Shown: positions 4,087 through 61,953, counted from the first letter of the stretch. The stretch: DNA of 64,000 bases from Amoebophrya sp. A120 (GCA_905178155.1 CAJINV010000022.1:703073-767072), one strand, 5' to 3'. Program-made: numbers and translations. Notes: generated from the letters alone by a model not told the origin.

Positions 4087-7000
4087 AAAGCATACTCCAA
4101 GGGCAGCAAGCAGCAGGGCATTACGGAGCAGGAAGCGAGGAGAAGGTACGGCCACGAAGTGAAAACCCATCAATTTCTGAACGAGCTGATCGCAAAGTGT
4201 GAGTGCGAAACTCTCGTTCCGACCTTGTGTTGCAACGTCTACACGAGCGGGCAGGTGCTAGTCCACGTGCGCCCGAAACCGGAGTTGCCGCAAGTGTTAC
4301 TCGTTCCCTTCCCGATCCCTCGGAATGCGGGCAGTTCTGCGCAGCTTGTAATGCAGGAGGTGAAAAGGATATCGCAAGAAAAAACAGTTTCACTGTAGAC
4401 TTGTAATGCAGAAAATGTATCTGAGAAGTGTTGGTCTTGTTACACATGCAAGACAGTGGATTTTTCGGCGTCTTTTCCCTTGGGAATCTCGCATGGCAAA
4501 TTTCCTCTGTGATGTAGAGCAAACTTGTGATGCAAAACTTGCAAAATCCTTACAGTGGAACACTTTTTTCGTGCGATAAAGGATCGAAGACAAGATTTTC
4601 GCAGAAACTACCGACGCTGACGACGAACAAGGTTTCCGCCTCCTTTATCAAATGCAAAAATGTCTGGGTCTGGAAAAATGCAAGATTTGTGATGCAGGTT
4701 TTCCACGTTTCATGAGGTCTGGAATGCGAGACCCAGCATGACAGATTCTTTGAGGTCTCTAGCATGCCTTTCCTGCATGAGAAAGAAACTCCCTCCCAAC
4801 TTGGTCAAAAGCGGACAGCTTTTGGTACTCACGCAACACAGATTTTTGCATCATTCAGATTTAGCATGACAAGTTCTAATCTTCCAGACCCAGACATTTT
4901 TACATTTGATATCCTTGCCGACCTAACTGGTAAGAACACAGCGGCAAATAAAACCGGGGAAAAGATCCGGCAACCCTGTCTGGTCCGTACCAGAAATACC
5001 TCGAGCCCCGGGGCAGAAGCGCAAGGCCCCGGTGGTGCTTTTTCCGCATTACAGTTTCACACGGTCGGAATGCTCTTTCCCCGTGACGCGAGTTCAGCCT
5101 CACTTTGGGACCGTCTGCGACCAGAGCTGTTCTTGAGCGGCGGATATCCTGAGAAAAAACTGTTTCACTGTGAACCTGTGATGCAGAAAATGAAACACAA
5201 AACTATTTGTCTTGCTACACATGCAAGGCATTGGGTTTTTCGGCCTGTTTTTCCTTGGGAAGTGCGCATGACAAATTTTCAGTGTCTTGTGCAACAAACT
5301 TGTGATGCAGATCATGCAAAATCATCACAGTGAAACAGTTTTTTCGTGGGATAGTGGAAATTTAGCAAGTACTGCTGGTGGTGGAACATCACTGGCAAGT
5401 GGTGGCGAGGACGCAACGGCGCAGCAGAAGTTTATCAACTGTAAAAGTGTCTGGGTCTGGAAGAGTTGGAACTTGTGATGCAAACTCTGGAACACGCAAA
5501 ACCTTGTGTTGCATGAGCGCCAAAACCTGTCCACTTCTTGGTCCGCAGGTAGGAAGTTTCTCACGCGGGACAAGCATCATGAGGCGTGCTCAAAACCTGT
5601 GATGCTTTTGCCTGCATCAGACGCCATTTGCGTGATCCGAAATATGCATGACAAATCTCGTAATCTTCCAGACCCAGACATTTTTACAGTTGATAAAGTT
5701 CTTGCAGAACCCATACGAGGTGCGGGTCAATGAGGAGGCGAGGCGACTCTCTGGCATCGTCCGGACACGGTTACTCGCGGAAGCCGCAGAGTACCTTGAC
5801 AGAATGTGCGGCGGCGAGTTCGCGGTGCAAGAGGATGGTAGTGCTGGTGCTGGAAAAATACCATTACAGATCACCTGCTCTGCGACGCTGACCAGGTTTC
5901 TGCACGCCAGGGGCGTGAATTGCCGCTATATCGGGCAGCTTTGTGGCGTCTGCAAAGAGCAGCACAGCTATGAACTGCAAAAGTATTGTAGTTGTACTCG
6001 TATAAATGCATGACGATGACAAATCTTCTCAGCATGAGAAATGAAATTTGTAATGCGGATTTACCTTTAAAAAAAGATTTGTAATGCATGGTTGCAATTA
6101 CTACGAGTAGGATACTGTTGCGCAGGATAACAGCAGGACGTTGTTGACGGTAGAAGCCGTGGCCAGGACGTGCAAGAAGATTCTGCGCGACAGGATAAAA
6201 CTCGCGCCGGTGCAGATCAATGGAACAAATCTCCGCGACGACAACTTTGTTGCCCCCTACTACGACGTGATCCTCCAGCTTTATCCTGTGCAAAAACATC
6301 CCCACACCAGAGTCAAGATGGGAGAGCTGCTAGACAAATCAACCAGCTTTGGTCGTTTCGCATGACAAATTTGGCCCCGTAGTGTAATCCTGTTTAGCTA
6401 GCTCCAGCAGCATAACAGATCTAGCATATCACGCTGATTTGAGCATCACAAACTCCAAAACACAATGGGGAAATGCTTCATGGAGCTCCGCATGAGAAAC
6501 ATTCTTGGCATGCAGATTTGCATGACAACTCTGGGGTGGGGATGTTTTTACTCAGAATAAGCTTTTCCAAGACACCATCGGCGAGTCTATCAAATGTAAA
6601 AATGTCTGGGTCTGGAAGGGTTGGAACTTGTGATGCGAACTCTGGAACACACAAAAATTTGTGTTGCATGAGCGCCAAAAGCTGTCCATTTCTTGGCACG
6701 CAAGTAGGAAGTTTCTCATGCGGGACAGGCATCATGAGGCGTGCTCAAAACCTGTGATGCTTTTGCCTGCATCAGACGCCACTTGTGTGATCCGAAATAT
6801 GCATGACAAATCTCAGAATTTTCCAGACCCAGACATTTTTACATTTGATAGAGTCGCAGAGAACGCAGCGTTTCTGGGTGGAGATGCTCGTGCGCGAAGT
6901 TTTGGAAAAATTTCCCGGAATCCCGAAGCAACTTTTGAAGCCGGACGGGCTTCCCCAAGACCTCCTGTTGCACGCCCTGCAGTACCATTTTGGCGTCGGC

Positions 7001-10000
7001 GCGATTTTGCGGATTGTTCCAGAGCGGAAACTATCAACTGCAAAAATGTCTGGGTCTGGAAGGCCACAACTTGTAATGCTGTCTGTGGATTCTAAAAAAA
7101 TTTGTATTGCATGACCAGCAAGAGGGGTCGGGTTTGTCCCACGCGGAGAGGGCATTTCTCATGCGGTAGAGGTATCACAAAGCTGCCCTCTAAAGATCTG
7201 TGATGCTACGGCATGTGTTACAGACATAAAGGCTCATGGAAAATATGCATGACAAATCTAGAAATCTTCTAGACCCAGACATTTTTGCATTTGATAAAAA
7301 CATTATCAAGACGATTTTATTTCACCGGAAGACTTGGACATCGTGGAGGACGTAGTGCCGTTCGAAGCAATATATCAAAGTGAAAAATCCCCCCACCCCA
7401 TACTCAAACTAGAAATTTGTGATGCAGATTTGTGGTCACAAATCAGCTTTGTCATGCTAGAAGGGAAAAGATGCGGACTGTAGTGCTGGTTGGCGCGAGA
7501 AAGCCTTGCATCTTCAACATGACAGGGGGCAGCTGGAAGGGAGAAACAGCATGACAAATTGCCTGCCGCTATAGAGGCCACCGCTGCGTCTCTTGGCCTT
7601 CTAGCATTACAAGTCGATTTGTGTACTGAAATACAGCATCACAAATTTCGTTTTCGATATGGGGAGGGGGAATTTTTCCTTTTGATACAATAACCGCGGC
7701 CAGCTCCAGTCTCCGCTACCGCCGCGTCGCGACCGCGGGTTCCGTATATTGAGAGCAAAAATCCCCCCTCCCCATATCGAAGAGTCATGTTTTCGAAAAT
7801 TTGTGTTGCTGATTTGAGACCACAAATCACGCCTGCCTTGCAAGAAGGCAACTCCACAAGCTCCGCAGCATCGTGCAGGCGGTTTGTGATGCTGATGGGC
7901 CTACAATGCAGACGTTTCCCATGCTAGACGCCTAGGCCAAAACCTCTCTACTTAGGCTTAGTATGGGCCTGCACTCCTCTCCAGCACGACAAGGCTGATT
8001 TGTGTACGCAAATCCTGCATCAGAAACTTCGTTTTGATATGGGGAGGGGGAATTTTTCCTTTTGATACCGTAACGGCGAACTTGGCCGCTACAGAGGTGC
8101 TGAAAAACTACAGAAATCTGCTCGCGGAGCAGATAAAGGAGGCAGCGGCATCGCTCGGAGGGGGGAGCGGTACAGCCGAGCAGCCGCCGGAGAGTTCCAC
8201 TGCGAAGAGTGCCGCCGCGCTCTTCTCCGCGCTGCTCGATGTGAGGAGGCTGGATTATCCTGTGCGAAAGGATCGGACTCGTAGATGATAATTGCAGTCA
8301 TGCAAGACAAATTGCTTTTCCGAGGTGAAGCACCATGATGAATTTTATTTCTCATGCTGAGAAAATTTGTCATGCAGTTTTCGCTTGGCAGTGCGATACT
8401 ACTTTTGCAAAAATTCATATCGTTTTTCTACCTGCGGTGGAGGAAATTGATTTGGACACGACGCTATCCTGTGCAAAAATACGTATGCCGTGCTAGTATT
8501 GCGCGTTGTACTACTTAAATGAATATTGCAGATACGCATGACAAATCTGCTTCCCAAGGTGATGCAGCATGACAAACTTGACTTTAACTTTTCAAGCTGA
8601 GCAGCATAAAGTAAACTTGTAATGCAATACGAACTAACACAACACTTTTGCCATGCATGAACGACAGCGAGCACATCTTCCGCCTTCAGTGCCCTACACG
8701 CTGCCACGTCCACAAGCATCTTCGAGCGGAGTTTTTTCGTTTTGAACCTGGAACTGTCACTGGCGGAAGCGAAACGCGATGTTGTTGCCGCCCGGATTTG
8801 GCGGTTGAAGCTGGGGCAGCTGGCGTTTTTGGCGCAAAACTACGAGTTTGGGTATCAAATCGCCGTGAAAGGACTGTTGGCGAAGATGCGGGAACGACAC
8901 GAGGAGCAAGTTGCCGGAAGAGTCCTCGCGATTGCCTGCGCGGTCGGCTTATCAATTGCAGATATATGTTTGGGTCTGGCTCTGGTGGAAAGATGCGTAC
9001 AATTTGTCACGGTGGTCCTTGCATGCAAGAGGCATCCCTTGTACGGCAGAACGGCATGACAACTGCTCCTCGGTTCCTTGCATAGTTCTACGTGTGTTTA
9101 AAGCATGACAAAGTATGGCTTCCAGCACGACAAAAAAACTGCCTCTAATCGCATTCATGCATTACAGAGCTCGCTGTCCCTCAGATTTTGCATGACAAAT
9201 CCAGACCCAGACCACATACTTGCTATGCATACGGGCTGCAGAGAGTTCAGACCGCGCGGGAACACTACGAGCAGGGAAAGATAGCCGCGGCGGCGGCGAG
9301 AGCAGGAATAGCGGCTGGGCAAGCGAAAAGGATGACAAGTATCAGAAAGAGCCGCACTACTCCTGTCCCCGACCTCATCACCAACGCCTGCTTCGAAATT
9401 CAGGCGAGCCGGGCGTTCCTCCTGGTATTTTCGCAGACCAGCGGTGGTGGCACCGAAGACCCTCCTGCTGGTGACGGATCATCGTCATTGCAGTCGGGAA
9501 GTACTATCATGTCGACGGGCTCACTCGCGGCACAAGCACACGTGGATTTTTTGACCGACAAGGTTCTAAGCACCGCGCCAGCTTTCTTTTCACCAAAAGC
9601 GAGAAGACCATTGTCACCAAAAATGATTTCGGGTTCATCTACCAGTCGCTCCACGTCCGCAGCGAGTTCTTCCAGGAGGGAAAATTCAAACGCGTTACCA
9701 GTTGCGGTCGTCCGAGCGAGAATTGCGTTTGGGTGGCTACTGCGAAAGCTCGTGACATCCTCGTCGCCAAGCGCTGCTGATACGGAAAAAAACGAGTCCT
9801 ATCAGCGCCAACCGCTAAGGATGGTAGTACCCGAAAAAGAATGGTTCAAAGTGAAAAATTTTCTGCAGGAAGCTTTGGACCTCTGCGGCCCATCAGCATT
9901 CTCCGCTACTTTCACATCCTCCCATACGGCGGTATCACAAAACCAGCAAGGCGGTGCGGCCAGTTCTGCGGGCTCCTTTGGCCGCTCCGGAGATGACCTC

Positions 10001-12712
10001 ATCCGGGCACGGTTGCTTTTCCAACTGGCGACGCTGGCGTTGCTGCAGTGCGAACGAGCAAAGCTGGAGCTGCCGAACACCGCAATACCGTTGGCAGAAA
10101 CGTGTCTGGCGACGAGAGTCGCGAAATCTAGTTCCCACGCGGCGACCGCACGGTCCGACCCGGTGGTGGTGCAGGCGAGCCTGCTTATGAAATGCAAATA
10201 TGTCTGGGTCTGGAAGAGTCTTGCTGTTTTTGCATGACGCAGAAGGTCTGGCATGGAAGCTCTAGCGTCACAGGTTTCGAGAACCTTCCGCAATGCCGAA
10301 TCGGCATGACAGTCCTCTATTTTGCTGACAAAAAGTAGGAGCTTTTACTACGTATGCATGAGAGACTTTTCTGTGTTCTGAAATACGCATTACAAGTTGC
10401 ATTCTTCCAGACCCAGACACTTTTGCGTTTGATACTGCTGCTTGCGTTCGCGTTTGAGTATGACATACGCATTGCAAAAGTATCGTACTAAAGTACATAA
10501 TTGCATGAGCAATTTTATCTCCCAAATGAAAAATAAGATTTGTAAATGCGGATGTAAAAACTGCCCGTATAGAAAATGGAAATTTCTCCTGCATGCCGGT
10601 ACGATACTTTTGCAAAGAATACAGCAATATCAACTGTAAAAATGCCTGGGTCTGGAAGATTCTGAAACTTGTGATGCACGTCTTGCATGAGCCATGATGT
10701 CTATGATGCACGCGCTAGCATCACATATTTTTTGAGGGCATCTTGATGCCTATTCCGCATGACAAATGCCCTATCCTTGTAGCAAAAATTATACTCCTTT
10801 TATCTACTCATGCAATACAAATTTTTTTGGAGTCCAAATGCAGCATCACCAGTTGCATTCTTCCAGACCCAGACATTTTTGCAATCCATAAGCAAACAGT
10901 GGAAGCAGGCGGTGCAGATGTACGACGAAATTCTACTCGCAGCCAGTACCGCTTATGATCTGCAAAAGTATCGTACTCGTATAAATGCATTACAAATTTC
11001 CTCAGCATGAGAAATAAAATTTGTAATGCAGATTTGCCTCGGGAACGAGATTTGTAATGCAAGACCTGCATTTATACGAGTGCGATGCTTTTCCACAGGA
11101 TACCGCTAGGAAAGACGCGATCTCTACTGACGAAACGGTCGAATCCTCGAGGCGAACAAGTAGCAGAACAGCGCGACAAATTCTCGCGGCGACAAATTCT
11201 CAACAAGGCCAGTATTCCACGCTGTCCCCCGATTTCCCCGTGTCTACGACCGACTCCGCGGCATTGCTGGCGCTGGTTGGCTGTTACGACAGCGGAGACA
11301 GTTTAAACGCATTGCAGAAAATTCCAGAAACGGAGCTGTTCTCTTTCTCACCTACTGTGACTTCGTGGCAAGAACGAAGGCGAAACTCTTCACGGCGACC
11401 GGCGTTGGGGTTGCGACTGGCGGGTGTGCGACGCCGGGCACTGTTCTTGTACTTGAGGTTCCTCTTCTCGGACACGGAAAAAAAGCAGCTGATACGACAG
11501 TGAACAACTACTCCCCCTTGTTCCCCTCGTTTGTCATGCAACCCCCCAAGAAATCCGAGCGCTTCCCTGTCCCTGTGGGACTGTTTGCATGACAGATTCC
11601 GGAAGCCCAAGCAGTTGCAGTACCACTTAGACTAGGCGCATGAATTTGTCATGCACAGGCACCGTATGTGTTGGTGTTTGTATTGCTGCTTATGCAAAAA
11701 TACAAATGAGGGGGAGGGGCAGAAGTTGCGCACCCTCATAGCTGATGAAGACGGTCGCGAAACTCTACCGCCGGTACAAAATGAAAAATCTGGCGAAGAC
11801 CACTACCCACTGCAAAAGCTGTAGCGATTCGTGCCAATCGCAATTACGCATGACAAGTTCACTTTGTTAGCTGAATTTAGGAAGGTAAATTTCCTTTCTA
11901 TTTCTCACAAAATCACTGCGTACCGGCCTCAAATTTATTTGTGATGCGATCTATTCAAGAATTACCATTAGCACGGTGCTTTTGCAATGCATATCTATTG
12001 GGCTTTCCCACACTGCCACCTCCCATTTCGACGTCACCGTGCCCACGTTGGTGCATTTTCTTGAATCCTTCCCGAAAATTCCCGATTTGACGACCACGGT
12101 GGCTGGATCTTCGAGAGACCAGGATGGAGATCCTGCTGATGCGGATGACGTTCTACCTGCCGACCATGCGTCTTCCACCCTGGAAATCGGGATTCTAAGA
12201 CACCCGGTATTCGAGACCGCGTTCACCGCCGGGCACGGGACGCGATTTCTCATGCAAGAAGTCCTACGCTGGCACGAAAACCAATTTGGGGAAGAGCGGC
12301 TGCGACGGGTGGTATGCGTTGCAAATTATATGTCGGGGTCTGGAAGGATCAGAATAGTGCACATGTGTCATGCGCCCTGTGCGTCACACGAAAATTTGTA
12401 TTGCACGACTAGCTAAAGCTGTCCATTTTACTTCTTGGCCAAGCCAAAATAACGACTCTCATGCAGCATAGGCAGTGCAAGGGCCTTGCAGATCATCAAC
12501 CTGTGATGCTAGGTCCTGCATTTCAGCCTTTTCCTTCCATGGAGCATCGAAATAAACCTGCATGACATACTCCTTCATTCTTGCAGAACACCTGACATAA
12601 TTGCATCTGATAAATGGAAGCGGATGACGATTTCCTTTTGATTCATGTGTTGCAGTGGACGTGTCGCAAAGCCTCGGGCCTGGTGCCGGAGAGCGTGGTG
12701 GAGATCCAGTAG
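4087..12712 (+). CDS. CLU (clustered mitochondria / eIF3-p135-like) domain protein split by at least 18 introner introns; 5' end unresolved (may start ~3900)
   Basis: Removing each element plus 5 nt joins one frame: EARRRYGHEVK...LFPRD...LWDRLRPEL...LTRFLHARGVNCRYIGQL...LLTVEAVARTCKKILR, matching CLU/CLU-central motifs from memory. Stop TAG at 12710-12712. Junctions at 11500-11995 not resolved. Confidence 0.75.
4370..4578. mobile_element. Introner family B
   Basis: TIR tatcgcaagaaaaaacagtttcactgta; TSD AAGGA/AAGGA; frame restored. Confidence 0.92.
4646..4911. mobile_element. Introner family A
   Basis: TIR tatcaaatgcaaaaatgtctgggtctggaa; TSD TCCTT/TCCTT; frame restored. Confidence 0.95.
5145..5353. 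mobile_element. Introner family B
   Basis: B-type TIR; TSD GCGGA/GTGGA; frame restored. Confidence 0.9.
5433..5695. mobile_element. Introner family A, opposite orientation to the 4646 copy
   Basis: A-type TIR; TSD AAGTT/AAGTT; frame restored. Confidence 0.95.
5969..6129. mobile_element. Introner family C
   Basis: Ends tatgaactgcaaaagtat / atactgttgcgcaggata; TSD ACAGC/ACAGC; frame restored. Confidence 0.9.
6282..6559. mobile_element. Introner family D
   Basis: TIR tatcctgtgcaaaaacatccccacaccagag; TSD AGCTT/AGCTT; frame restored. Confidence 0.92.
6588..6850. mobile_element. Introner family A
   Basis: TSD GAGTC/GAGTC; very similar to the 5433 copy; frame restored. Confidence 0.95.
7032..7296. 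mobile_element. Introner family A
   Basis: TSD GAAAC/AAAAC; frame restored. Confidence 0.92.
7373..7687. mobile_element. Introner family E
   Basis: TIR tatcaaagtgaaaaatccccccaccccata; TSD CAATA/CAATA; frame restored. Confidence 0.94.
7747..8067. mobile_element. Introner family E
   Basis: TSD CCGTA/CCGTA; frame restored. Confidence 0.93.
8256..8419. mobile_element. Introner family C, opposite orientation to the 5969 copy
   Basis: C-type ends; TSD TGGAT/TCGTT; frame restored. Confidence 0.8.
8465..8659. mobile_element. Degenerate introner, C-like
   Basis: Left end tatcctgtgcaaaa; right end ttttgccatgcatg; TSD GACGC/AACGA; frame restored. Confidence 0.65.
8950..9231. mobile_element. Degenerate introner family A
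   Basis: A-type ends; TSD CGGCT/CGGGC; frame restored. Confidence 0.8.
10186..10434. mobile_element. Introner family A
   Basis: TSD CTGCT/CTGCT; frame restored. Confidence 0.93.
10466..10621. mobile_element. Introner family C (TAC start)
   Basis: tacgcattgcaaaagtatcgtac / gtacgatacttttgcaaagaata; TSD diverged (TGACA/CAGCA); frame restored. Confidence 0.75.
10628..10890. mobile_element. Introner family A
   Basis: TSD AGCAA/AGCAA; only 6 nt from the previous element. Confidence 0.92.
10954..11102. mobile_element. Introner family C
   Basis: TSD CCGCT/CCGCT; frame restored. Confidence 0.92.
11804..11993. mobile_element. Highly degenerate introner, C-like
   Basis: tacccactgcaaaagc / gcttttgcaatgcata; internal motif present; no TSD; frame not restored by the simple rule. 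Confidence 0.5.
12313..12612. mobile_element. Degenerate introner family A
   Basis: TSD GGTGG/AATGG; frame restored to the terminal exon. Confidence 0.8.
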
Positions 12713-20933: not shown

Positions 20934-23900
20934 ATGGCGCAACCGGAATTGTGTCTTGTCGTCAACGACGATGTGTTTGGGTTTTCGAAAGTGGGGACAT
21001 TTTCTCTCGGCAGCGACAGCAGCTGCTCCATGGTGGTGGAAGACCGTGCACCTAAGAAGCTAGTGGTCGTCGAAATAAAGGAGACTACAAGTAAACGCAA
21101 AAATAGCGCTCCTGCGGTCACGGTGACGCCCAGTTTGCCCGGTCACGGCGTCTGGTACAATGGAAAACGGCAAGAGACGCCCTTCGTCATCGAACTGAGC
21201 GAGACCTTCTTCTGCGGAGGGTTACCAGCGGGAGCGAAGCCGAAGAGCGACGACCCCGCTGGGCGGTACTACAAAATCACACTCGACCTCCAGGCTAACG
21301 CGGAAGCGAAAACCGCCGTCGTCACCGGTGACGATGACGACGCCCGGCAACTAATACGCACGGCAAAAATGTCTGGGTCTGGAAGGTTGGAACTTGTAAT
21401 GCTAGCTTTACATTCCTGGAAAATGAAAATCTGTATTGCATAACCAACAAAAGTCGCAGCCTCTTCTGTCATGCAAAGACGCAGTTTGTCATGCGGATTT
21501 CCTATGAAAAAGCGTTTTGGGAAGTTGTCATGCTGGGCTGCATTCGGAGTGTTTTCATCATGGACATTTCAGCATCACAAGTTTCCTGACCCAGACATAT
21601 TTGCATTTGATAACTAAGGGTGAGTGACGAGCTATCCAAAACACTGCCGTTGTTGCCCGAGTTGCAGACCGCGACTGACGATATGGCATTCTCAAACGTT
21701 ACATTTACAACTGTATACATGATTTGTCATGCAAAATTACCATCAACATCCACACGATGCTGCTGCTGCGCATGACAAATTTTTGAAGGGCTGAACAGTA
21801 CTGAAATATGTGCCGAACAATTTGTAATGCTAGAGGCGCAATCTAAATCTATGTCCTTTGACTTTTCGTTTTGCCATTCTTGCATTACAAATTAATGTAT
21901 ACAGTTAAGAGCGTGACGTTTGAGAACCCCATAGACGAAGAGCGAAAGGTGTACAGAGACGCGTGTCTGGAGGCCGCCCGGAGAGAGTACGAGCTGAGCT
22001 GCGCCGCAGGCCCCCAGCTCGGAATGGCGCTCATGGCGATATCAAATGTAAAAGTGTCTGGGTCTGGAAGGATGTAACCTGTGATGCGCATTTCAGAACA
22101 CACAAAAATCTCTCATGCATAGGTAGCAAAAGCTGCTCACTTTCTGTCACCAAAATGGGGGATTTGTCATGCGGGTTCGGCATTGCGTAAGCTTCTCGAA
22201 ACCTGTGATGCTAGCGCTCTCATGCCAGACCTTCTGTGTCATGCAGAAACAGCATGACTCTTCCAGACATAGACATTTTTGCATTTGATAGACGAAGGAG
22301 GCCGACCAAAGTAAGAACCTTGCTTTCGCAACCGCGACGCACTTCGTCAGGCCGAAGCTCCATGTCACGAAAACGGGCAAGATGATGCCCATCTTCGAGG
22401 ACAAGAAGCACAATCCCGGCGCCCGCGCCGCTGAGGATGTGGACGACGAAGATGAGGATGAACAAGATGGAGAACCGCGCGCGAAGAAACGAGACAGGAA
22501 GAAAACCCCCCAGGACAGCACACTCGCCACCAGCTCGAGTGCACCGATGGAAACCTCACCTGCGCCACCGTCTTCTAGCCCAGAGATCGATGTCCATATG
22601 AATGTGCGATTTTGGGAGGAATTACACGACCCCGTTTTCCAGGTCAAAGCGCCACAAGCCTTTTTTGACAAGCTGGAAGAGTTACTCCCCCAAGTAGTCG
22701 AGATCACGAAAGTCATGGACTACGATGATTCCGACCAGGAGGATCTGCCGATTTCATCTGGTACTTTTTATCTATCTAGGAAGGTACTTATAGGAAGGAT
22801 GTTGATCCCCCCTGCCAATATTACTTGGAACCAAAATTTGTGATGCTAATTCGTGGCCGCAACTCAGCTGTGTTTTGCAGACCGGGGAAAAAACTTCGGG
22901 TGCCATGTAGTGGTGTATTCTTCTAGGGCCGATCTGTCGTCATGCGTTTCCGCTGATGACAAAGGTGTTTGTCATGCTAAGTTGCTAGCCGGCTGCATCC
23001 CCAAATAGCTCTCGAGGATGCAGTAAAGACCTACCTTCTGGCTAGGACGGGAGTGGGGATCTTCTGTTTATTCATTTTTATTCATTGTGTTGATGACATA
23101 TGTTGCATGATGCTACTTGCAAATAGAAATACCCTGTATGTGATTCTTGTTCTTCTATGTTCCGCTGAGAAGGAAAAGTTAGCCCATAGAAAGCCATCAT
23201 TTAGAATCGCTCCTAAAAAATTTGAAACAGATCATCTGATGAAAAACCCTTCCACGATCTTTGGTGCCTCGAAGCTATCTATGCATTGCAAATATGTCTG
23301 GGTCGAGAAATACACTGTGGACTTTGTCATGCTGTTCTGCATGACCCAAAAGGAGCTCCGGTATGCAAGCAATCGCATCACTGATTTCGAGGAGCTCCCT
23401 CAATGCTCCTTAAGAATGCCTCTCCCGCATATAGATGAAATGCGAGACTTCTTTGATGACAAGAAATTGGCGACTTTTGCATTCCATGCATGACAGATTT
23501 TTGTCTGATCGAAAAGAAGCATCACACGTTTCAATCTCCCAGTCCCAGACATGCTTGTAATGCATCACCTCCACCACCACCAGGCAGAATCTTGGGAAGG
23601 ACAAGAACGTCTTCAAATACGACGCCGGGAAGTTTGCCAAAGATCCGAGTGCGAGTGCGTCGTCACGGTCACCCCCGAAGGACTATCAAATGCAAATATG
23701 TATGGGTCTGGAAGAACGAAACTTGTGATGCTGCATTTGGAATCCAAAAAAATCTGTATTGCATGAGAGGCAAATAACGGAAGGCAATTTTTGCCACGCA
23801 GAGAGGGAATTTGTCATGCGGAATAGGCATCAGGATGCTGCCCACAAATCTGTGATGCTAGGCCATGCATTACAAGCGTCATAGATCATGCAAAATATGC

Positions 23901-23959
23901 ATGACAAACCTGGCAGTCTTCCAGACCCAGACATATTTGCAATGCATAAGGGCTTAAAA
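20934..23959 (+). CDS. Hypothetical protein with possible N-terminal FHA-like domain; may continue into the 24.5-27 kb exons
   Basis: FSLGSDSSCSMVV...HGVWYNGKR pattern is reminiscent of FHA folds; frame restored across 21355, 21682 and 22040; later junctions incomplete. Confidence 0.5.
21355..21612. mobile_element. Introner family A (TAC start)
   Basis: TSD ACTAA/ACTAA; frame restored. Confidence 0.9.
21682..21933. mobile_element. Introner family F
   Basis: TIR tatggcattctcaaacgttac; TSD GACGA/GACGA; frame restored. Confidence 0.92.
22040..22290. mobile_element. Introner family A
   Basis: TSD GGCGA/GACGA; frame restored. Confidence 0.92.
23280..23566. mobile_element. Degenerate family A element
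   Basis: A-type ends; right terminus decayed. Confidence 0.65.
23684..23948. mobile_element. Introner family A
   Basis: TSD AGGAC/AGGGC. Confidence 0.92.
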
Positions 23960-24475
23960 GGTAAAAAAGTTCGGTCAACATCGGTAGCTGTTTGCAAAAA
24001 AGAGATAACAAGTACCCAGTACTGTAGAAGTGAAGATGCGAGGTATAAGATTATGTTTATGTCGCAAAAGCTGCCAACAAGCATGAAGTGGTTAGAATGA
24101 TGCAATAAAATCCAGGTCTGGCGGATCAAGAGGCGAACGAGTTGGACGCCGATGGCAAACTCGGGTCTCGCATGAAAGGAAACGTGATGCACAGCGATAT
24201 TTTTTCCGGCGTATCATCCAGAATTTTCTTTCCCCTGATCCCAAATCGGACTGGAAGAGGCATGGTTCTTGTACATGCAGCATTCTCATCTTGTCGACGC
24301 TTTGGAACCGTGATAAGCCATGATGACTAGCACAGCATGGGGTCTTCAGCTGTACCGAAAGAAGCTGTCCGTGTTACCATGTACATAGGAATTATGCTAG
24401 TCAGGCAACAAACGAACCGTTGAAGCCCTGACGAAAAGTTGTAGGCGCTAAGCAAGACACACGCGCTTGCAGATG

Positions 24476-26952
24476 CGAAGGGGGAGGGAAAAATCCTTCA
24501 CCATCGATATGCCGAAGATTTCTCGCCGAGCCAGGATGACAAGAAGATAGGTGTGAACAAGCCGTCGATTCTCTTCGGAAGGGGACCCAGCAAGACCATC
24601 AACATCACCGGCAGTATTTTTGGTGACGATCATGAGGTATTGAAAATATATACCTTGCTTGAGGATATGGGAGCGAAATTGAAGTCATTTCACACTTTTC
24701 GAACGAATCTTTTGTGTAGTTCAATTCTAGTTCGATAGTGGAGCAGCGACTTTGATTCGAATTCCTGAAGCGCTTACCGAACAACATACTTTTGGTTTTA
24801 TGTAGCTCGTAGCACATACATCTTTTCATTCCAGCTCAACAACGCCAACATGGAGAGCAACGGTAACAAGCAGGACATCACTCCCAAAGGCAGTAAGAAG
24901 GAAGTTGCGCAGGACGAGAATGATGTCTCCAAGAGCGTCGATGTGAAGGGACATGCCAAGGGAGCTGTGGCCGGCAACGTCGGGTCCGGCTATGGGATTC
25001 TCAAACGCTACACTCTCAACTATTGCTGCATGAATTTGAATTTGTGATGCAAGATCAGCAGTGGTGAAACAGGGCGGAAACTTGCAACTCTCGCACCACA
25101 AAACTGGCACAGGTTTTGCCACTGCTTCGTCCTTCTTCGATTTGTCTTGCAAGGTAACTTGGTCGTATGGCGGCTTATGGTGATTTTGCATGACAAATCA
25201 TGATGTGGTGCAGTCGGGTGCGCATGACAAATCATGACGTCACAGTTTAGAATGTAACGCTTGAGAGTCCCATAGCGGCAAGAGCAATCTTATCGGATGT
25301 AAAAGCGCTGCACTGGCCATTGAAACGCACGCGGAGCGCAAAGTAGGGCATGGCTATGTAGCACAAAATGAAAACCAGGGCCAACTGCAGTCACTGCCAT
25401 GAGCATGAGGCCTGCTGGTATGCATTGAGCGGCAGAAAATCTAGGAGTGATGAAGACACAAAACGTGGCCATCTTTTCTGCAAAGCGGCATCCCGTGCGC
25501 CGTACTTTTACACCGGATAAGCACGGCGGAACAAGTGACTCTCCCCGCCGGTTCCATCCAGGGGCAGAAAGAGTGGGAGTCGGACTCGGGACTCGCGCCC
25601 AAGAACGATGAGCAGGAGCAGGCGCATACGAAGGGAAAATCTGCGGGGGCTGCGGAGGGCAGTGTACGTGCATCAATTTTGAGGATGTAAATGATCCTAT
25701 GCACTGTTGTGCAGAGTCCATTCGTTCATTACCTGCACCACTTCGCAAAACTTTCGTGACGTTTGATTTGATGCTGTACGACGAATTTGTGGTTTCTAAC
25801 TCGAATGCAGATAATAATTTGGTATTCCAGGTCAACAACGCCTCCATGAATAACAGCGGTCGCAGTAACAAGGAAGGTGTACGCACCGCAAATATGTCTG
25901 GGTCTGGGAGACGTGGAACCTGTGATGCTTGTTGTGCTGCATTTTTGTATTTCTCTTTGTAGTGCATGGCCAGCAAAATAAGTACAGCCTCCTTTGTCAT
26001 GCAGAAATGCAGCATGTCAAGCCCACTCGGAATGAAAAAGCTTGGTGTCATGCTTGGTTGCACCCAGATCTCGTTCATCCGTCCAAAACCCAGCATCACA
26101 AGTTTTCCAGACCTAAACATCTTTGCATTGCATAAAGTGTGCCGAACAACAAAAATGATCTTTTCAAGGGCAAGGGCGACAAGGAAGCCCCTGTGCAGGA
26201 TCAAAAGGGCGTGATCGAGGGCGACGAAACGAAGGGACATGCCGTGGTCCCTGTGGCCGGCAACGACGGAAGCGGCGGCGGCAAGAACGGTCTTATCGCA
26301 TGTAAAAGTGTTGCATACGCAATCCGGATATGCATTGCAAATCTGTCTTGGTCTGGAAGATTGCAAGATTTGTAATGCGCATTGCACGTGACCCATGATG
26401 TCTGTGATGCAAGGGCAGGATCACAGAAGATCTTCTGAGCTGTGCTTAATGATGCATATCCCGCAAGAGAAATGCCCTCTCCACCACGACACGTAGCAAC
26501 TACAATTGGGCTGCTTTTGCATTTGCTGCTCAAGCGATACAGATTTTTTGAGAAGAATCAAATATCAGCATCACAAATTGCACTCTTCGAGACCAAGCCG
26601 CATTTGCATTCCATACCAGATTAACTCGGACTGGGTGTGGGAGGTAAGTTATGGAACAAAAATGTATATAATCTCTAGCCAGCAGTCACTACTATCTCTC
26701 CAGCGTCTGGTGACATGCATTCATTGGAAACAACCAACTTGATGAAATCAAGTCATCTTGCATTTGCGTGTTGCGCGACCTGCGCTTCGGTTCGGGGTCA
26801 GAATCCTTCCCCCGTGTCCAATGCTTTTACAGCGGATCAGCATGCCGGACGAAGGGGTTCCTCCAGTCGATGAGAACATCCAGCGCAATCCTTGGACACC
26901 GAAGAAGGAAAAGGCGCCGAAGGACTATGATCATGCCGCGGCCCATACGCAA
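24476..26952 (+). CDS. Partial gene for a low-complexity protein with an internally duplicated exon module
   Basis: In-phase GT-AG introns 24637-24834 and 25664-25830 plus introners; paralogous exons (KGHAKGAVAGNVGSGK vs KGHAVVPVAGNDGSGGGK). Confidence 0.55.
24991..25274. mobile_element. Introner family F
   Basis: TSD CCGGC/GCGGC; frame restored. Confidence 0.9.
25291..25519. mobile_element. Old introner family J
   Basis: tatcggatgtaaaag / cttttacaccggata; no TSD left; frame restored by element plus 5 nt. Confidence 0.65.
25880..26134. mobile_element. Introner family A (TAC start)
   Basis: TSD AGGTG/AAGTG; frame restored. Confidence 0.88.
26294..26838. mobile_element. Old introner family J carrying a nested family A copy
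   Basis: tatcgcatgtaaaag / cttttacagcggatc; same exon position as the 25291 copy. Confidence 0.65.
26329..26615. mobile_element. Family A element nested in J
   Basis: TSD CCGGA/CCAGA. Confidence 0.85.
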
Positions 26953-27114
26953 GGCAATCGTGTCACTGCCAGGGAAGGGACAGTTGCTCTTTTCATCTTC
27001 TTTTTGTTTGTCCTACATTGGATCGGCCGTGAGGAAAATGAGGCAAAGACTGTAGGCAGCCTCAACTCCCACAGCAGCGCTTTAGGCGGATGATTGCAAC
27101 GCATGATCGATCCA

Positions 27115-27374
27115 TATCAAGTTCAAATATGTCTGGGTCTGGATTAGTGTGAGGTTTGTCATGCTTGGCAAACAAGATTCTCAAGTCTGTCATGCGCGTG
27201 ACTCGACTGGCCCATTTTTCTGTCAGGCAGGAACGCAGTTTGTCATGCAGAATTGGCAACATCTAGGAGTTCCGAAATTGTCATGCTGAAGCTGAGCTAC
27301 CTCTTGTGGACTCCTCATGTTGATGCGCCTCTCACCGTGCAAATTTCCAGACCGAGACATATTTGCAATGCATA
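27115..27374. mobile_element. Family A element
   Basis: TSD ATCCA/ATCCG. Confidence 0.88.
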
Positions 27375-27450
27375 ATCCGAAAGCAAAAGCAACTTTCCGA
27401 GGGTTGTCCGGCTTCCGCGACAGTAACACGACTATTTGCCTGCTCCATAG

Positions 27451-27693
27451 TATCGCAAGAAAAAACTGTTTCACTGTATCTGTAAACTTGTGATGCATAG
27501 ACATAGAATGCTTTCGCGACGCGTTTGTCTTGCTACATCACATGCATGCAACACAGACGCATTTGTTTGGGTTTATCAACGTGTTTTCCCTACTTAGCAC
27601 GTACGCATGGCAAGTTTTTTTTGTTGGGTGTCACGAATTTGTAATGCAAAATTTGCAAAATCCTCACAGTGAAACACTTTTTTTCTCACGATA
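27451..27693. mobile_element. Family B element
   Basis: TSD CATAG/CACAG. Confidence 0.88.
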
Positions 27694-28277
27694 CACAGCT
27701 TTGAAATACGGTAAGTGTTTGCTTTTGTGGACTTTGGTAAAAGCGCACCGCTCTCTGGCTCTCTGTCTTGTTGTGCAGCACTTTTCAAAAGTAGCATGCT
27801 AGTATGACTAGGGGTAGTAGCTACAGCACCACGCCAAGGAGAACATACGGCTTTAATAGCGGTAGTCCCACGCCCAGTGAGGACGTTACGCTACGCAGTT
27901 ATGCCGGCTCAGCATGAGAAGATTCACCCACATCGTGCATGAATGTCTCCTGACCCTTCGTCAGTCACCGCATAACAAAAAAATTGTCTACCAGCCAAGA
28001 CCGATTACCTGTACATATCCTGATGAGCATGACACTTCTCTCTCACCTCACCAATTTGACATGACAACGACCCCAGCAGCCTGTGCCGAATTGTTTTTCG
28101 CGAGGACCGGTCGCTATCGCGAAGGGACAGACCAGGGTTTGCAGTTCGGGCCGAACTGCAAACCCTGGTCTGTCGGTGGACATGGTGTTGAAAAAAATGG
28201 TGTATAGGATGTACCAGTGCACAGTACTAATTGTGGGTTCTACGAGTAGTATTCGAACATTGCCTGGCACCATAGAG

Positions 28278-28545
28278 TATCAAGGGCAAATATGTCTGGG
28301 TCTGGAAAAGTGCAAGATTTCTCGTCAAGTTCGACTAGCGAGGCGCTCAAGTCTGTCATGCACGTTAACGAAAAGTCCCACTTTTCTGTGATGCAGAAAC
28401 GCAGTTTGTCATGCAGAACAGACAAGTACAAGACCTAAAACCTCAGAAACTTGTCATGCTGAGCCATCGCTTGTGGCGCTGTCATGCTACGCCACCCAGC
28501 ATTACAAATTGAAACTTCCGGACCCACACACATTTGCAATCCATA
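28278..28545. mobile_element. Family A element
   Basis: TSD TAGAG/TCGAG. Confidence 0.85.
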
Positions 28546-31500
28546 TCGAGGTGGGAAGATGCTGTCTTTGAAGATGATACCAGGCTACCGACTACGCCAC
28601 CCGGTGGACTTTATCAAGTCGCAAAAGGCCTGCATCTTTTACCTGCATTACAGAATGTGTATTTTTTTGCAGAGGCAAAAGTGGCAGCGAATGATTTGAG
28701 ATTTCCACCATCATGTTGTTTGCATGATCAGAAAAACTGGACGACCTCAAAGACGCGATCGCATTTTTTGCACGACGGTACCGGGCGACCATTCCCCGGT
28801 AATCATTTTCTGTTGTGCGCGTCCATGTCCTGCCGTTTCTACGTATCCAACTTTGCGTTCCTTAGCAGGAGAAAGCTGGTCCGTTTCGGCTTAATAAGCG
28901 AAGGCCCAGGTTTACGCCAAGTACCACTGACCACCTGGTTCTCGAGCTAGTTGCCCAGGCGGGAGCGAAATCGCTAGCATGCACTATCAGTATTCGTTTC
29001 TGTGATATCTTTGGACCAGATGTTCCGGACACTGCCAGGTCGCGCGACCACGTATTGCATGATAATGCTTGATTTTCTTAGCGCCTGGCGCCCATTGCTG
29101 TGCAGGGTGGTCAGTACAAAGAGCAGACCCAAATTATCGCACCACGAAACACATCTGTACTAATATGACCGACTGTAGAAAACGAGGACACTTTCGGTCA
29201 TCAACATGCATTTTTTAGGAAAGCTAGACCGAGAATCTGGTTCCTTCTTTGGATACGGCCCGGAACGAACTCGAGATCCACGATGACCAAGGCACCACCC
29301 CACGCCGGTCGAAGAAAAACGACGCCCGGAAGGTAATCGTCATCGCACAGAACGCCAGCGGGAAACCGCACGAGCTATGCTCTGAAGAAATCACAACTAC
29401 ACACGTGCCAGAATGTTATGCATTCCTCATTTTTTTTCATGTGATGAACCAGGGACAGTTTTTAGCTTTTCGTGCACATTTACTGCCCATCACCGGTTTA
29501 ATCGAGGGCTGCTTAGCGGGTGTGTTGGTTGTGATTGTTCTGAACTTCTATACGCCAAGGAATGTGACGAACACAACAACACAAACGTGAAGATATGGAA
29601 GGAGGACCCGGACTTCAAAGACTGGTGCAAACAGGCAAAGTATCCAAGGGAGAAAGTACGTGCATGCGCGCATAACAATCAGCATTGCAACAACAGCAGC
29701 GGCCATGCGACGACTCCCAGTAAACAGACTTTGCTGCGCTGCTGTTGCTGCAGAGTGGACCACGTTTATTTGAGCAGTATTTTTCCCTTGGATAGCGTGG
29801 CGTTCTACCGTCCCGCTGATGCTGCCGCGAAGAATCCGGAGAAAAGCTAAAGTATGATAGAATCGTAACGAGTGTCGATCAAAGTGAAATTGCAAAGATT
29901 ACTAGTAGAATTTCAGTTTTTTGACCGCAGACTCAGAAAGATATATCCTGTTAAATGACGTGCCCATCCAAGTTCTGTCATGCAAATCTTGACGCCTGAA
30001 GACAAAATGTTCCTCATGCGCAGCCCTAGCATGAGAGGAATTTTCTAAATGTTCTCTGCACTAGGCATCCGCAGACGACTATAGAGTAACCTAAAATTTG
30101 TCATGCGTAGCAGCGAAAAGCTGTTGCATGTGTAGCCCAACTTCCATGCTGGCGATAGGATGGGATCGTTAACGTTTTTCTTCAGCATACTAATGACCTC
30201 ACAGCTTGTGCCACACATAGATGGTGACATTTGATGAAAAGCAACAGGCCCGATTTTTCTTGTGCTAGATTTTGCTTAAGTATTGTTTCCTGTTCCTGAT
30301 AACACGTATGATTTTTTCTTTCTTAACGACTTTTTTTTTCACTCACTGGGCACATTAGTGTAAATCTGACGTAGTAGGCTTCTTGATCTTACTGCGCAGG
30401 ATTTCAAACTGCAAAACCCCTTTTTCTGTAGATTGATGGGAAATTCTTTTTTCTCCAGGACAATTTGTGTTTTCTTTTTTATAAAAGGGTTAGGTCCTGC
30501 TGTTATCGGCGCAAATTTTTTCAGACACTGTCGGGCATGCACATCACGCGAACGGGAAGAATGGTTTTGCCTGTGCACAGGAAAAGCTGTTCCCCCTTTT
30601 CCTAGTCGGAGTCGAAAGAAGCTGCTTTATTGACACTTCAAGACAGTGCAAGCCGACGCGACTCTAAGCTGCGGAGGTTGGTTGTAGGACGTATCAGAAG
30701 TATTGGAAGATAAAGCATTTCTCGAAAATGCGTTCGGCAATGATTTCTCTGGTAGGGTCCGAACCAATCTAGTTGTGCTGGATAAAAAACTGCCTCCGGA
30801 AGTGTCCACGAAGTTCACGTCAGTAGCTGATAAATGATGGCATCGTCGCTGGTCACCGGGCCTTTTGTTCTGTCTCTATAATATAGCAAAGAACTAGAAC
30901 GCGCAGCCCAAATTACATGTACGAGGCCAGCATGCGGCGCATTACAAGATGCAGTAGGTCTTTGTCTTTATTTAAAAGCTTGTAGCAGAAACAGCGCCAC
31001 TTCAAACCTTGACACAGCAGGAAGTGGCAGCAACAAGAACACAAGATCAAGATGCTAGCGCCATTTACATTTTAGTGTTGGTTTTACGTAAATTGTATTT
31101 ATTTTTTAAAACTGGTGACAGCCTACGATTTACAGAAAACCCTAACAACCAATGAGTCCCGGCGCCACGATCTTAGCGGCCGCATCCGAGCATGCGAAGA
31201 TGCACCGAATTTGTTGTCTTCTACTTTTCTAATGTAAAGGGTTTCTTGTATGTTATTCCTACGTAGAATTGAGAGACAGCTTCGCGGAAGTAGAATTAAC
31301 GGCGCCATCGATGACAAACCGAGATTTTGCAAAAGGCTTTGCTGTTCGGCTTGAATGTAAGTGAGCACAGAGCTAAAGATCTTGTCCGCTGGAAGGACAA
31401 CGAAGCAAAATGTGCCCTATTCTTTGATAGAATACGCGTTCAGCTTTGAGATGGTTCGCACAGTCGCAAATATACTGCTCGCAAGATGAAGTAAGACGTA

Positions 31501-33745: not shown

Positions 33746-33749
33746 TGGC

Positions 33750-60192: not shown

Positions 60193-61953
60193 ATGTCGTA
60201 CAATAAGCAGAACGCCCCAAGAGGGCCGTCTATGGGCCCTGCTACTCAGACACGTCCGCGTGAACAGCGTGGGCGGGAAGAGGGCGGACCGCGCTCCTTA
60301 ACCAGGGAACGACTATCAAATGGAAAAATCCCCCCTCCCCATATCGAAAACGAGATTTGTGATGCTGTATTTGAGTACACAAATCGAGTTGTAATGCTAG
60401 AAGGCCAAGAGACGCAGCTGTAGCCTCGTTTGCAGGCAATTTGTCATGCTGTTTCCCACTTCCAGCTGCCCCCTGTCATGCTGAAGATGCAAGGCTTTCC
60501 GACGCCAACCAGCACTACAGTCCGCATCTTTCCCCTTCTAGCATGACAAAGCTGATTTGTGACCACAAATCTGCATCACAAATTTCTAGTTTGAGTATGG
60601 AGTGGGGGGATTTTTCATTTTGATAACGACAACAGCAGATGGTGGCCAAGAGCAGATCCAACAGCGGCCCAGGGATCCGAGATAGAAGCCACGGCGGTGG
60701 AAGTGGTGCTGCTACTGCAGTCGATGCGCGAGTTGTGCTCCCGTCACTGCACTACTTGTACGCGAATGTCGACGTCCAGGAATACGAACTCGCCACGCTG
60801 CTCGCATGGGACCAAGCACTATCAAGTGTAAAAATGTCTGGGTCTGGAAGATTCTGAGACTGGTCATGCACATTCTGCATGAGCCATGAGGTCTAGAATG
60901 CGAGACCTAGCATGACAGATTCTGTGAGATGATCCGTGTCATGCCTATCCTGCATTAGAAACTTCCTCTCAACTTGGTCAAAAGTGGACAGCTTTTGGCA
61001 TTCATGCAACACAGATTTTTGCACGATCCAGAATTAGCATTACAAGTTGCAATCTTCCAGACCCAGACATTTTTGCAATTCATAAGCAGGCCGATATCAC
61101 AACATGCTACTTACGACGATGGATGTTTTTGCCTGCGCTCTGTCTGTCATGCCTTTGTGTTTGCCACGAGCGGGGCCGGTACAAACGAACCGCTGCATGA
61201 CTGCCTCGGAGTGTTTGTATCAGAGTTTTTTGAAGATTTCCCGCCCCTTTCCGTGCTGATAAATTTCGTTTTTCCATGCGCAAATCCGCACCGGGATTGT
61301 TCGTTGGAAGCATGCCAGGCAGCGCAGTCGGACGTTTTTCTTCGCGAAACCCTGTCGGTGCATATCTCATGTCAAATCAGTGTCACAAACCCATTAGATA
61401 CACGCAAGCGGCGCATTTATGTATCTTTCCTGCGAATCATGCGAAGCAACTGCGGTCGGACCACTGCGTGCTTTGCTTTCATACGCTGCGAATGTGATTT
61501 TGATTTTTCCGCGGTGCGTGCTCATGCATTACAAGTCGCCCTTTTAGACAGTGATTTGCCATGCGATACTTACGAAAGCAATTGCTGCAGCTGAGGAAAT
61601 ATCAAATGCAAATATGTCTGGGTCCTCTGGAAGGATGCAACCTTATCGTAGTCATGCTAAGTCTCAATCACAAAAACATCGTGTATTGCATGTGCGCCAA
61701 AAGTTGCCCAGCTCCTGCCAGGAGGTCTCGCTAAATCTCTGATGCTTTTGTGTGCATTCCAGACTGTGTCATGTGCATTCCTGCATACTTCTAGAACCAG
61801 ACATATTTGCAATGCATAGGGACATCTTGGATGACGTTCCGTACAAAGAAGAATACCCTCTAGCGGACCTGGACGCCAAGATACAGATCGTCAGGCACCT
61901 CGAGACACTATGGCTACACGAGACGGAACGGATCACTGATGCATTCAGACAAG
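60193..61953 (+). CDS. Hypothetical multi-exon protein, 3' end unresolved
   Basis: MSYNKQNAPRG...TRER/QQQMVAKS...AWDQA/GRYHNMLL joined across elements; later exon DILDDVPYKEEY... ends at a GT donor. Confidence 0.5.
60314..60625. mobile_element. Introner family E
   Basis: TSD ACGAC/ACGAC; near reverse complement of 7373-7687. Confidence 0.95.
60820..61084. mobile_element. Introner family A
   Basis: TSD AGCAC/AGCAG; frame restored. Confidence 0.92.
61600..61818. mobile_element. Short family A element
   Basis: A-type TIRs; TSD GGAAA/GGGAC. Confidence 0.8.

What the first reader, a model, noticed from the sequence alone, without database searches (positions are those of the whole stretch)
4370..11102. 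TAT...ATA MITE-like elements act as non-GT-AG introns: 17 consecutive insertions in one intact CLU gene
Seen: 17 successive elements from five families (A-E) interrupt one gene. Most have TIRs and a 5-bp TSD, and none has consistent GT-AG ends in any TSD register (e.g. TCCTT|TATC...GATA|TCCTT). Deleting element plus 5 nt restores a stop-free frame at every junction and rebuilds CLU motifs. The same holds in other genes across the window. Known: IR/DR-bounded non-canonical introns are described in Amoebophrya, and to my knowledge their removal mechanism is unresolved. Inference: a precise excision system other than standard splice-site recognition, acting on RNA hairpins or, less likely, by IES-like DNA excision.
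Basis: partly seen in the sequence, partly recalled or inferred. Interest (0 to 1): 0.92.

Follow-up and report, generated by a model that had tools for sequence, protein, structure and literature searches.

The report
Transposon introns cut at fixed offsets
These are the already described transposon-derived, non-GT-AG introns of the parasitic dinoflagellate Amoebophrya A120, but transcript-like contigs show that they are cut out at one fixed position relative to their inverted repeats, likely by a relaxed spliceosome, which makes an open splicing question testable.

Summary
The 17 elements are real. The exons match an Amoebophrya sp. A120 protein already in NCBI, so these are the published A120 introner elements (Farhat 2021: TAT-N7-AAA inverted repeats, 5-bp direct repeats). 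Contigs of probable RNA runs lack each element plus 5 nt; DNA-like contigs keep them. The new point concerns the cut site, which Farhat calls variable or unknown. Mismatched target duplications show it is fixed: 1 nt before TAT and 4 nt after ATA. This fits 32 of 32 contig junctions, is the only fit in 9, and alone reproduces three deposited proteins. Only two repeat positions are conserved in transcription direction: T at intron +2 (333 vs 322 of 334) and A at -7 (331 vs 310 of 334). G+1 and AG are not enriched. Best reading (inferred, about 0.55): a U1-less spliceosome using +2U, a branch A at -7 and a fixed ruler. Main rival: hairpin endonuclease plus ligase (about 0.3). No lariat data exist here. 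The scan noted a similar element in Prorocentrum cordatum (e1-7693921, unchecked).

The parts
4099..12712 (+). Visible coding part of a CLU-like gene (residues ~157-1411 of NCBI A120 protein P0001), 21 exons; N-terminal exons lie upstream of the window
   Evidence: Spliced model identical to P0001 over 1255 aa; matches X3 contig at 13 of 13 coordinates
5882..5947 (+). Start of PF12807 (eIF3_p135 / CLU-central) match, continuing across element 5
   Evidence: 26.4 bits vs cutoff 22; P0001 residues 429-480, 37 bits
4079..4098 (+). 3' end of an upstream element-type intron (ATA ends 4094, cut after 4098); its 5' end lies before the window
   Evidence: P0001 resumes at 4099; X3 piece starts 4098 with 118 nt from elsewhere, no X3 cover at 3500-3816
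4370..4578 (+). E1, TSD AAGGA/AAGGA; removed 4369-4582
   Evidence: P0001 match
4646..4911 (+). E2, TSD TCCTT/TCCTT; removed 4645-4915
   Evidence: P0001 match
5145..5353 (+). E3, TSD GCGGA/GTGGA; removed 5144-5357
   Evidence: register 2-5 from X3 contig
5433..5695 (+). E4, TSD AAGTT/AAGTT; removed 5432-5699
5969..6129 (+). E5, TSD ACAGC/ACAGC; removed 5968-6133
6282..6559 (+). E6, TSD AGCTT/AGCTT; removed 6281-6563
   Evidence: summed contig length E5-E12; P0001
6588..6850 (+). E7, TSD GAGTC/GAGTC, 30/30 TIR; removed 6587-6854; predicted branch A 6848
   Evidence: branch position is inference
7032..7296 (+). E8, TSD GAAAC/AAAAC; removed 7031-7300
7373..7687 (+). E9, TSD CAATA/CAATA; removed 7372-7691
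7747..8067 (+). E10, TSD CCGTA/CCGTA; removed 7746-8071
8256..8419 (+). E11, decayed TIR, TSD TGGAT/TCGTT; removed 8255-8423
   Evidence: P0001 requires register >=4
8465..8659 (+). E12, ends ATG, TSD GACGC/AACGA; removed 8464-8663
   Evidence: register 1-4; kept in X1 contig 8347-10212
8950..9231 (+). E13, TSD CGGCT/CGGGC; removed exactly 8949-9235 (TT..GG ends)
   Evidence: X3 joint 8948>9236, register 4 only
10186..10434 (+). E14, TSD CTGCT/CTGCT; removed 10185-10438
10466..10621 (+). E15, starts TAC, TSD TGACA/CAGCA; removed 10465-10625
   Evidence: P0001 requires register >=3
10626..10626 (+). 1-nt exon between E15 and E16 at register 4
   Evidence: summed contig length of 83 nt for E14-E17
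10628..10890 (+). E16, TSD AGCAA/AGCAA; removed 10627-10894
10954..11102 (+). E17, TSD CCGCT/CCGCT; removed 10953-11106
11493..11740 (+).
11804..11993 (+). E19 (missed), starts TAC, TSD ACCAC/TCTAT
   Evidence: register 3-4
12313..12612 (+). E20 (missed), TSD GGTGG/AATGG
   Evidence: X3 joint 12309>12615, register 2-5
20934..28608 (+). Second gene (P0003) used as out-of-sample test: 11 elements and 4 GT-AG introns
   Evidence: register 4 alone gives 0 differences over 699 aa
39733..57897 (+). Third gene (P0002) with 39 elements counted, including nested 46452-46714 in the 3' flank of 46261-46450
60075..63730 (+). Fourth gene with 8 elements and 2 GT-AG introns joined in all four probable RNA runs

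Best explanation
These are non-coding inverted-repeat insertions with 5-bp target duplications that are removed at a fixed position (1 nt before TAT, 4 nt after ATA), most likely from RNA and likely by a relaxed, U1-less spliceosome that would use T at +2 as donor and the first A of ATA as branch point. Shown: removal of element+5 nt; the 4+1 register; free identity of intron positions +1, -2 and -1; direction-specific conservation of +2 T and -7 A. Because the cut keeps 4 nt of the first duplicate and 1 nt of the second, any insertion, at any target and in either orientation, restores the original mRNA. Inferred: pairing of the repeats (A-run with T-run, 11-14 nt in) brings the two ends together in place of U1, which was not found in A120; the terminal pairs open; A at -7 attacks the 5' cut; the 3' cut is set by distance, not by AG. 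Also inferred: mobility by an unidentified DDE transposase.
For: Register 4 fits 32 of 32 contig junctions and is the only fit in 9; next best is register 3 with 21 (20 two-sided joints, 12 one-sided piece ends with +5 assumed). It alone reproduces P0001, P0002 (aa 238-905, apart from one 6-aa exon difference) and P0003 with no substitution. Over 334 elements only +2 T (333 vs 322, p=0.003) and -7 A (331 vs 310, p=3.5e-5) differ clearly between arms in transcript direction; +5 is marginal (p=0.02) and 13 other positions are symmetric. The effect repeats separately in 256 elements from other loci on both predicted strands (120 plus, 136 minus). The -7 A stays although its 5' partner is C, A or G in 24 of 334. 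All 9 GT-AG introns examined start GTA, like the elements' N-TA, and 6 of 9 have A at -7 (background 0.33, p=0.04). The one window element without +2 T has a GC donor (47079). A120 has U2, U4, U5, U6 and nearly all spliceosomal proteins but no detected U1 (PMC7789003). Amoebophrya ex K. veneficum has U1 and GT-AG introns (PMC12005148). Fixed branch-to-3' distances occur in Yarrowia and Trichomonas (PMC2483917).
Against: No lariat, snRNA pairing or inhibitor data. G at +1 (82 of 256) and AG ends (24 of 256) are at background, and +1 and -1 are independent (p=0.67), whereas spliceosomes normally need these bases (own knowledge). The bases around A-7 match no branch consensus. A-7 is not absolute: 51249-51550 has G there and is spliced. 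By annotation only, 43442-44299 needs element+6. The canonical A-7 signal is weak (6 of 9). The RNA status of X3-X7 is the tool's guess, the four runs are one sample, and the NCBI proteins probably rest on related RNA, so they are not independent. Strands in the 256-element set are predicted by a codon model (agrees with Pfam strand in 7 of 8 loci, 1 mixed). Gozashti 2025 lists gc/ga donors in some A120 families (44 of 331 in fam12), which may be placement ambiguity or real exceptions.
Confidence: 0.55

Rival explanations
1. A protein endonuclease plus RNA ligase (tRNA-splicing or IRE1/RtcB-like, or whatever removes euglenid nonconventional introns) recognises the stem end, reads U+2 and A-7 as identity elements, and makes a staggered 1-nt/4-nt cut without a lariat.
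For: No G+1 or AG preference. Ends are joined in the predicted fold of 10 of 17 elements. The A-run/T-run stays paired in 18-21 of the 22 oldest elements while arm positions 4-10 decay. 1-nt exons are tolerated. Euglenid introns also have fixed offsets from the stem (+4..+6 with -8..-6; PMC4770533).
Against: 7 of 17 have open ends yet are removed. The pair at +4/-7 tolerates mismatch but not loss of the A. Donors share T+2 A+3 with the genome's GT-AG introns. No such enzyme was sought or found here.
Confidence: 0.3
2. A minor (U12-type) or other specialised snRNP reads N-TATC, which resembles the U12 donor, and measures the 3' site from a branch point.
For: TATC at +2..+5 is modal and +5 C is slightly enriched on the 5' arm (236 vs 207 of 334, p=0.02). 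Relaxed ends and a constrained branch distance are U12 traits (PMC2483917 passage; donor consensus recalled).
Against: TATCCT occurs on 47 5' arms and 39 3' arms of 334, so there is no directional selection. +4 tolerates C. U11, U12, U4atac and U6atac were not found in A120.
Confidence: 0.08
3. Developmental DNA excision (IES-like) creates element-free genes that are then transcribed.
For: Footprint-free loss of element plus one TSD equivalent. Raw stranded RNA reads of this strain were not available.
Against: X1 contig 8347-10212 holds E12 and E13 at depth 46, equal to intergenic 46.5. Element-free contigs also lack GT-AG introns and have no depth at 3500-3816 or 52287-52903. The cut is asymmetric and conserved bases follow gene direction, while elements lie in both orientations. 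Only 15 of 1461 joints were shown, so rare excised DNA is not excluded.
Confidence: 0.04

Closest known systems
Amoebophrya A120 introner elements / non-canonical introns (Farhat et al. 2021, PMC7789003)
   Same: Same organism by protein identity. Inverted repeats start TAT, then 7 variable nt, then at least 3 A; 5-bp direct repeats; about 240 nt; no consistent dinucleotide ends. All nine most frequent A120 non-canonical types in Table S4 have T in second position, as the rule predicts.
   Different: The paper's Fig. [quoted passage not shown] S23 gives 1-5 nt. Here the offset is fixed at 1 and 4 nt, with directional T+2 and A-7. I could not see the figures themselves.
A120 introner families in Gozashti et al. 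2025 (PMC12130899)
   Same: TIR DNA elements creating tens of introns in single A120 genes.
   Different: In 22 of 58 A120 rows read, automated TSD calls range from 2 to 5 nt with mixed co-option modes; no single register or branch position is given in those rows.
Euglenid nonconventional introns (PMC4770533; review PMC11282704)
   Same: MITE-like origin, stem joining the ends, fixed offset of cuts from the stem, mechanism unknown.
   Different: There pairing at +4..+6/-8..-6 is conserved, with pyrimidine|purine junctions and circular products. Here the stem starts at +2/-5, junction bases are free, and base identity outlasts pairing at -7.
Fritillaria borealis non-canonical introns (bioRxiv 10.1101/2025.08.15.670264; review PMC11282704)
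   Same: Transposon-derived non-GT-AG introns handled by an altered major spliceosome.
   Different: Fritillaria ends are still specific (AG-AC, AG-AT) and U1 is present; here three of four terminal bases are free.
Constrained branch-to-3' introns of Yarrowia, Trichomonas, Giardia (PMC2483917)
   Same: 3' site at a fixed short distance from an A; branch A at about -6 and -8 there, candidate at -7 here.
   Different: They keep a strong branch motif and AG; neither is present here.

Membership tests
Amoebophrya A120 introner elements | Host is Amoebophrya A120 | tested here: met
   Three window exons hit NCBI 'Amoebophrya sp. A120' proteins at 98-100%
Amoebophrya A120 introner elements | Non-GT-AG intron supported by transcripts | tested here: met
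   0 of 17 GT-AG; element-free contigs, RNA status a guess supported by joined GT-AG introns
Amoebophrya A120 introner elements | Inverted repeat TAT-N7-AAA and 3-5 nt direct repeat | tested here: met
   paper passages
Amoebophrya A120 introner elements | Splice site variable relative to the hairpin (as published) | tested here: not met
   Fixed 4+1 register, 32 of 32; this corrects the description rather than excluding membership
MITE / non-autonomous TIR DNA transposon | TIRs, constant TSD, many copies, no coding capacity | tested here: met
   5-nt TSD in 211 of 280; copies 76-95% alike in other loci; no Pfam hit in 5 ORFs of two long elements
MITE / non-autonomous TIR DNA transposon | Autonomous partner transposase | tested here: inconclusive
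   No transposase family among 112 proteins scanned (100 of 235 long ORFs from other loci plus 12 others); no genome held
MITE / non-autonomous TIR DNA transposon | Empty orthologous site in a relative | not tested
   No fetched locus was orthologous to the window's genes
U2-type spliceosomal intron | GT/GC-AG termini | tested here: not met
   0 of 67 GT-AG at register 4; 7 of 256 in other loci, chance level
U2-type spliceosomal intron | U at +2 and purine at +3 | tested here: met
   333 and 331 of 334
U2-type spliceosomal intron | Lariat at a branch adenosine, U2/U6 dependence | not testable with these tools
   Only a directional conserved A at -7; no raw reads of this strain
U12-type intron | Strict RTATCCT donor | tested here: not met
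   TATCCT 47 vs 39 of 334; consensus recalled
Ciliate-type IES | Element-free DNA in a somatic genome | tested here: inconclusive
   X1 keeps elements at single-copy depth; other stages not sampled; joint table truncated
Clueless / CLUH orthologue | CLU (PF13236), CLU-central (PF12807) and TPR domains | tested here: inconclusive
   Only partial PF12807; Atlas top hit 'Clustered mitochondria, putative', 0.93, 216 of 256 features. Divergent CLU-like protein

The most novel reading that the evidence does not exclude
A120 has a spliceosome that has dropped G+1 and the 3' AG altogether. A transposon terminus TAT supplies +2U at one end and, read as ATA, the branch A at the other; the 3' cut is measured 7 nt from that A, and repeat pairing replaces U1. 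One palindromic 3-nt signal plus a 5-bp duplication thus makes any insertion a perfect intron, which would explain the genome-wide invasion.
Probability: 0.5. Interest if true: 0.9.

Novelty: already known. Interest (0 to 1): 0.62.

Why it matters
The elements and their non-canonical removal are published, and this gene's spliced protein is already in NCBI. How more than 60% of A120 introns are removed without GT-AG is stated as unresolved, and the published view is that their borders are variable. A fixed 4+1 rule with two directional bases would give exact borders for thousands of introns and a named nucleotide to test as branch point. I did not find the rule in 7 literature searches or in the passages read, but subscription papers and figures were not visible. 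If lariats form there, it would be the most relaxed spliceosomal splice-site code known to me; if not, a non-spliceosomal mRNA splicing system has a precise substrate definition.

Tried and rejected
No RNA holder was listed as such. No genome was held, so no snRNA, transposase or genome-wide intron survey was possible. A stwintron reading of 51249-51550 with an element at 51555 was dropped: contig lengths and P0002 show a 40-nt exon and the next element at 51596. The internal GCAT(G/C/T)AC motif was considered as branch site and rejected: it is symmetric (39 vs 43 of 67 elements, 40-55 nt from either end). A blind scan of unvalidated window regions showed no clear asymmetry (3 vs 4 non-consensus at low threshold, including false arms). 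Position +3 shows no asymmetry (331 vs 328). Rfam found nothing in the window. All window genes examined are on the plus strand, so a minus-strand junction could not be read from contigs. Orientation calls for the two forward-type elements with informative junctions are weak. Left out of counts: 49400-49721 (inside a GT-AG intron per P0002), annotated intron 26950-27994 (not element-type, dubious), two unresolved elements after 28608, 24 of 280 elements without a strand call, and loci shorter than 1.5 kb. No structure or complex prediction was run.

Full report
Observation. The 17 elements are present at the stated coordinates, with three more downstream and the 3' end of another at 4094. Eleven of 17 have a perfect 5-nt duplication. 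Eleven strict TIR-plus-duplication pairs occur in 4300-11200, against none in 200 shuffles. Removing each element plus 5 nt gives a 1259-aa frame, while other offsets give at most 911 aa, and no register gives GT-AG for any of the 17.

Identity. An exon search returned one protein, NCBI 'Amoebophrya sp. A120', 1411 aa. The spliced model equals it over 1255 aa. It carries only part of PF12807; the Atlas places it near Clustered-mitochondria proteins (0.93). It is a divergent CLU-like gene whose first ~156 aa lie before the window. Farhat et al. 2021 (PMC7789003; passages, sections 10 and 16, supplement passages and part 3 read; figures not visible) describe exactly these elements in A120: repeats starting TAT, 7 variable nt, at least 3 A, and 3-5 nt direct repeats. 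They report U1 as not detected. Gozashti et al. 2025 (PMC12130899; passages and 22 of 58 A120 supplement rows; files 13 and 14 not searched) note tens of such introns per gene. The finding as written is therefore known.

RNA or DNA. A 3839-nt contig of run X3 matches the spliced model at 13 of 13 checked coordinates. It covers E3-E20, partly as summed lengths; E1 and E2 rest on the deposited protein. Contigs of X1 keep E12 and E13 at depth 46, the same as intergenic DNA. X3, X4, X6 and X7 (one sample; RNA is the tool's guess) also join GT-AG introns; X3 has no depth at 3500-3816 and none of the four has depth at 52287-52903, so they behave as mRNA. Table 5 showed 15 of 38 joints.

The cut is fixed. 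Where the two copies of the duplication differ, the junction shows which copy was kept. Keeping 4 nt of the upstream copy and 1 nt of the downstream copy fits 32 of 32 junctions and is the only fit in 9; registers 3, 5 and 2 fit 21, 17 and 16 (12 of the 32 are one-sided). The same register alone reproduces P0001 (others 1-4 differences), P0002 aa 238-905 (others 3-28, one 6-aa exon difference aside) and P0003, examined after the rule was set (0 over 699 aa, others 1-12). It holds where the duplication has decayed to 0-1 matches. One annotated junction, 43442-44299, needs element+6 (read by hand). The proteins probably derive from related RNA and are not independent evidence. Farhat's Fig. 3 legend calls the splice sites variable and the border unknown, yet all nine most frequent A120 non-canonical types in their Table S4 have T second.

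What is read. The intron is N-TAT...ATA-NNNN. Since both arms begin as the same sequence, any difference between them in transcript direction points to selection on the RNA. In 78 window elements and 256 strand-called elements of 280 from other loci (whether same strain is unknown), two of 16 positions differ clearly: T at +2 (333 vs 322 of 334, p=0.003) and A at -7 (331 vs 310, p=3.5e-5); +5 is marginal. The second set shows both effects alone, on 120 plus and 136 minus genes. Its strand calls agree between neighbours in 183 of 186 cases and with Pfam in 7 of 8 loci. At -7, changes that break the pair from the 5' side are common (24) while A-to-G, which keeps a wobble, is rare (3): identity matters more than pairing. 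G+1 and AG are at background and unlinked. In the 22 oldest elements the A-run/T-run stays paired while positions 4-10 decay. All nine GT-AG introns examined begin GTA and end CAG, and six have A at -7.

Mechanism. [quoted passage not shown] The cut geometry and conserved bases are shown; every step naming the spliceosome is inferred. Precedents are the fixed branch distances in Yarrowia and Trichomonas (PMC2483917, passages) and the altered U2 spliceosome of Fritillaria (bioRxiv 10.1101/2025.08.15.670264, abstract and passages). The strain with GT-AG introns has U1 (PMC12005148, passages). The main rival, at 0.3, is a stem-end nuclease with ligase, as may act on euglenid introns (PMC4770533 and PMC11282704, passages). 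Complete freedom at +1, -2 and -1 is hard for a spliceosome (own knowledge), and no branch consensus surrounds A-7. A U12-like reading fails the donor test. DNA excision is unlikely but not closed. One nested pair implies order: 46452-46714 must go first to regenerate the 3' flank of 46261-46450 (annotation-level support only).

Literature check. Searches found no statement of a fixed register or branch position for Amoebophrya. Passages of PMC9860276, PMC11453091, PMC12787238 and bioRxiv 10.1101/2020.10.14.339549 and 10.1101/2022.06.08.495308 added none. Subscription papers, bioRxiv supplements and figures were not visible; Farhat Figs 3 and S23 may show part of this pattern. An unchecked scan note reports a similar element in Prorocentrum cordatum.

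Verdict. Real, already known in kind, not an artefact. Interest is 0.62 because the fixed register corrects a published statement and names one nucleotide whose lariat status decides the mechanism.

Noticed in passing
window 1-3121: 69-bp satellite (45 copies) that appears to lie inside the CLU-like gene's upstream intron, which ends like an element at 4094; that intron would exceed 4 kb.
   Followed up: partly
window 32186-33750 and 34236-35163: Tandem arrays (75-bp and 134-bp units) built from the same GCATCAC / GCATGAC motif found near both ends of the elements; possibly transposase binding arrays of a larger element.
   Followed up: no
window 46261-46714: Element 46452-46714 sits in the 3' flank of 46261-46450; only its prior removal restores the outer duplication, implying ordered splicing.
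   Followed up: partly
window 48062-48323, 63472-63682, 42595-43235, 43505-43807, 26329-26615: Elements nested inside other elements, each with its own 5-nt duplication (perfect or one mismatch).
   Followed up: no
window 10626 and 48931: 1-nt exons between adjacent elements under the 4+1 rule; 8- to 15-nt exons occur at 61354-61361, 48000-48010 and near 50260.
   Followed up: partly
window 52070-52918: About 850-nt insert without inverted repeats inside element 51873-52970; 90% alike over 549 nt to L017.
   Followed up: no
window 47079-47393: The only validated element without T at +2 begins G-CAC, a GC donor.
   Followed up: partly
window 49308-49737: P0002 treats this as one GT-AG intron containing element 49400-49721; a two-intron reading adding 6 aa is also in frame.
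   Followed up: no
window 57027-57897: Two elements and one GT-AG intron are spliced from a long 3' UTR, so removal does not depend on a reading frame.
   Followed up: partly
L067, L013, L009, L053, L033: The same element families lie within or beside conserved genes (RNA polymerase largest subunit, SNF2 helicase, DNA ligase, TRIP4-like, KN17-like) in accession series JACKZZ01.
   Followed up: no
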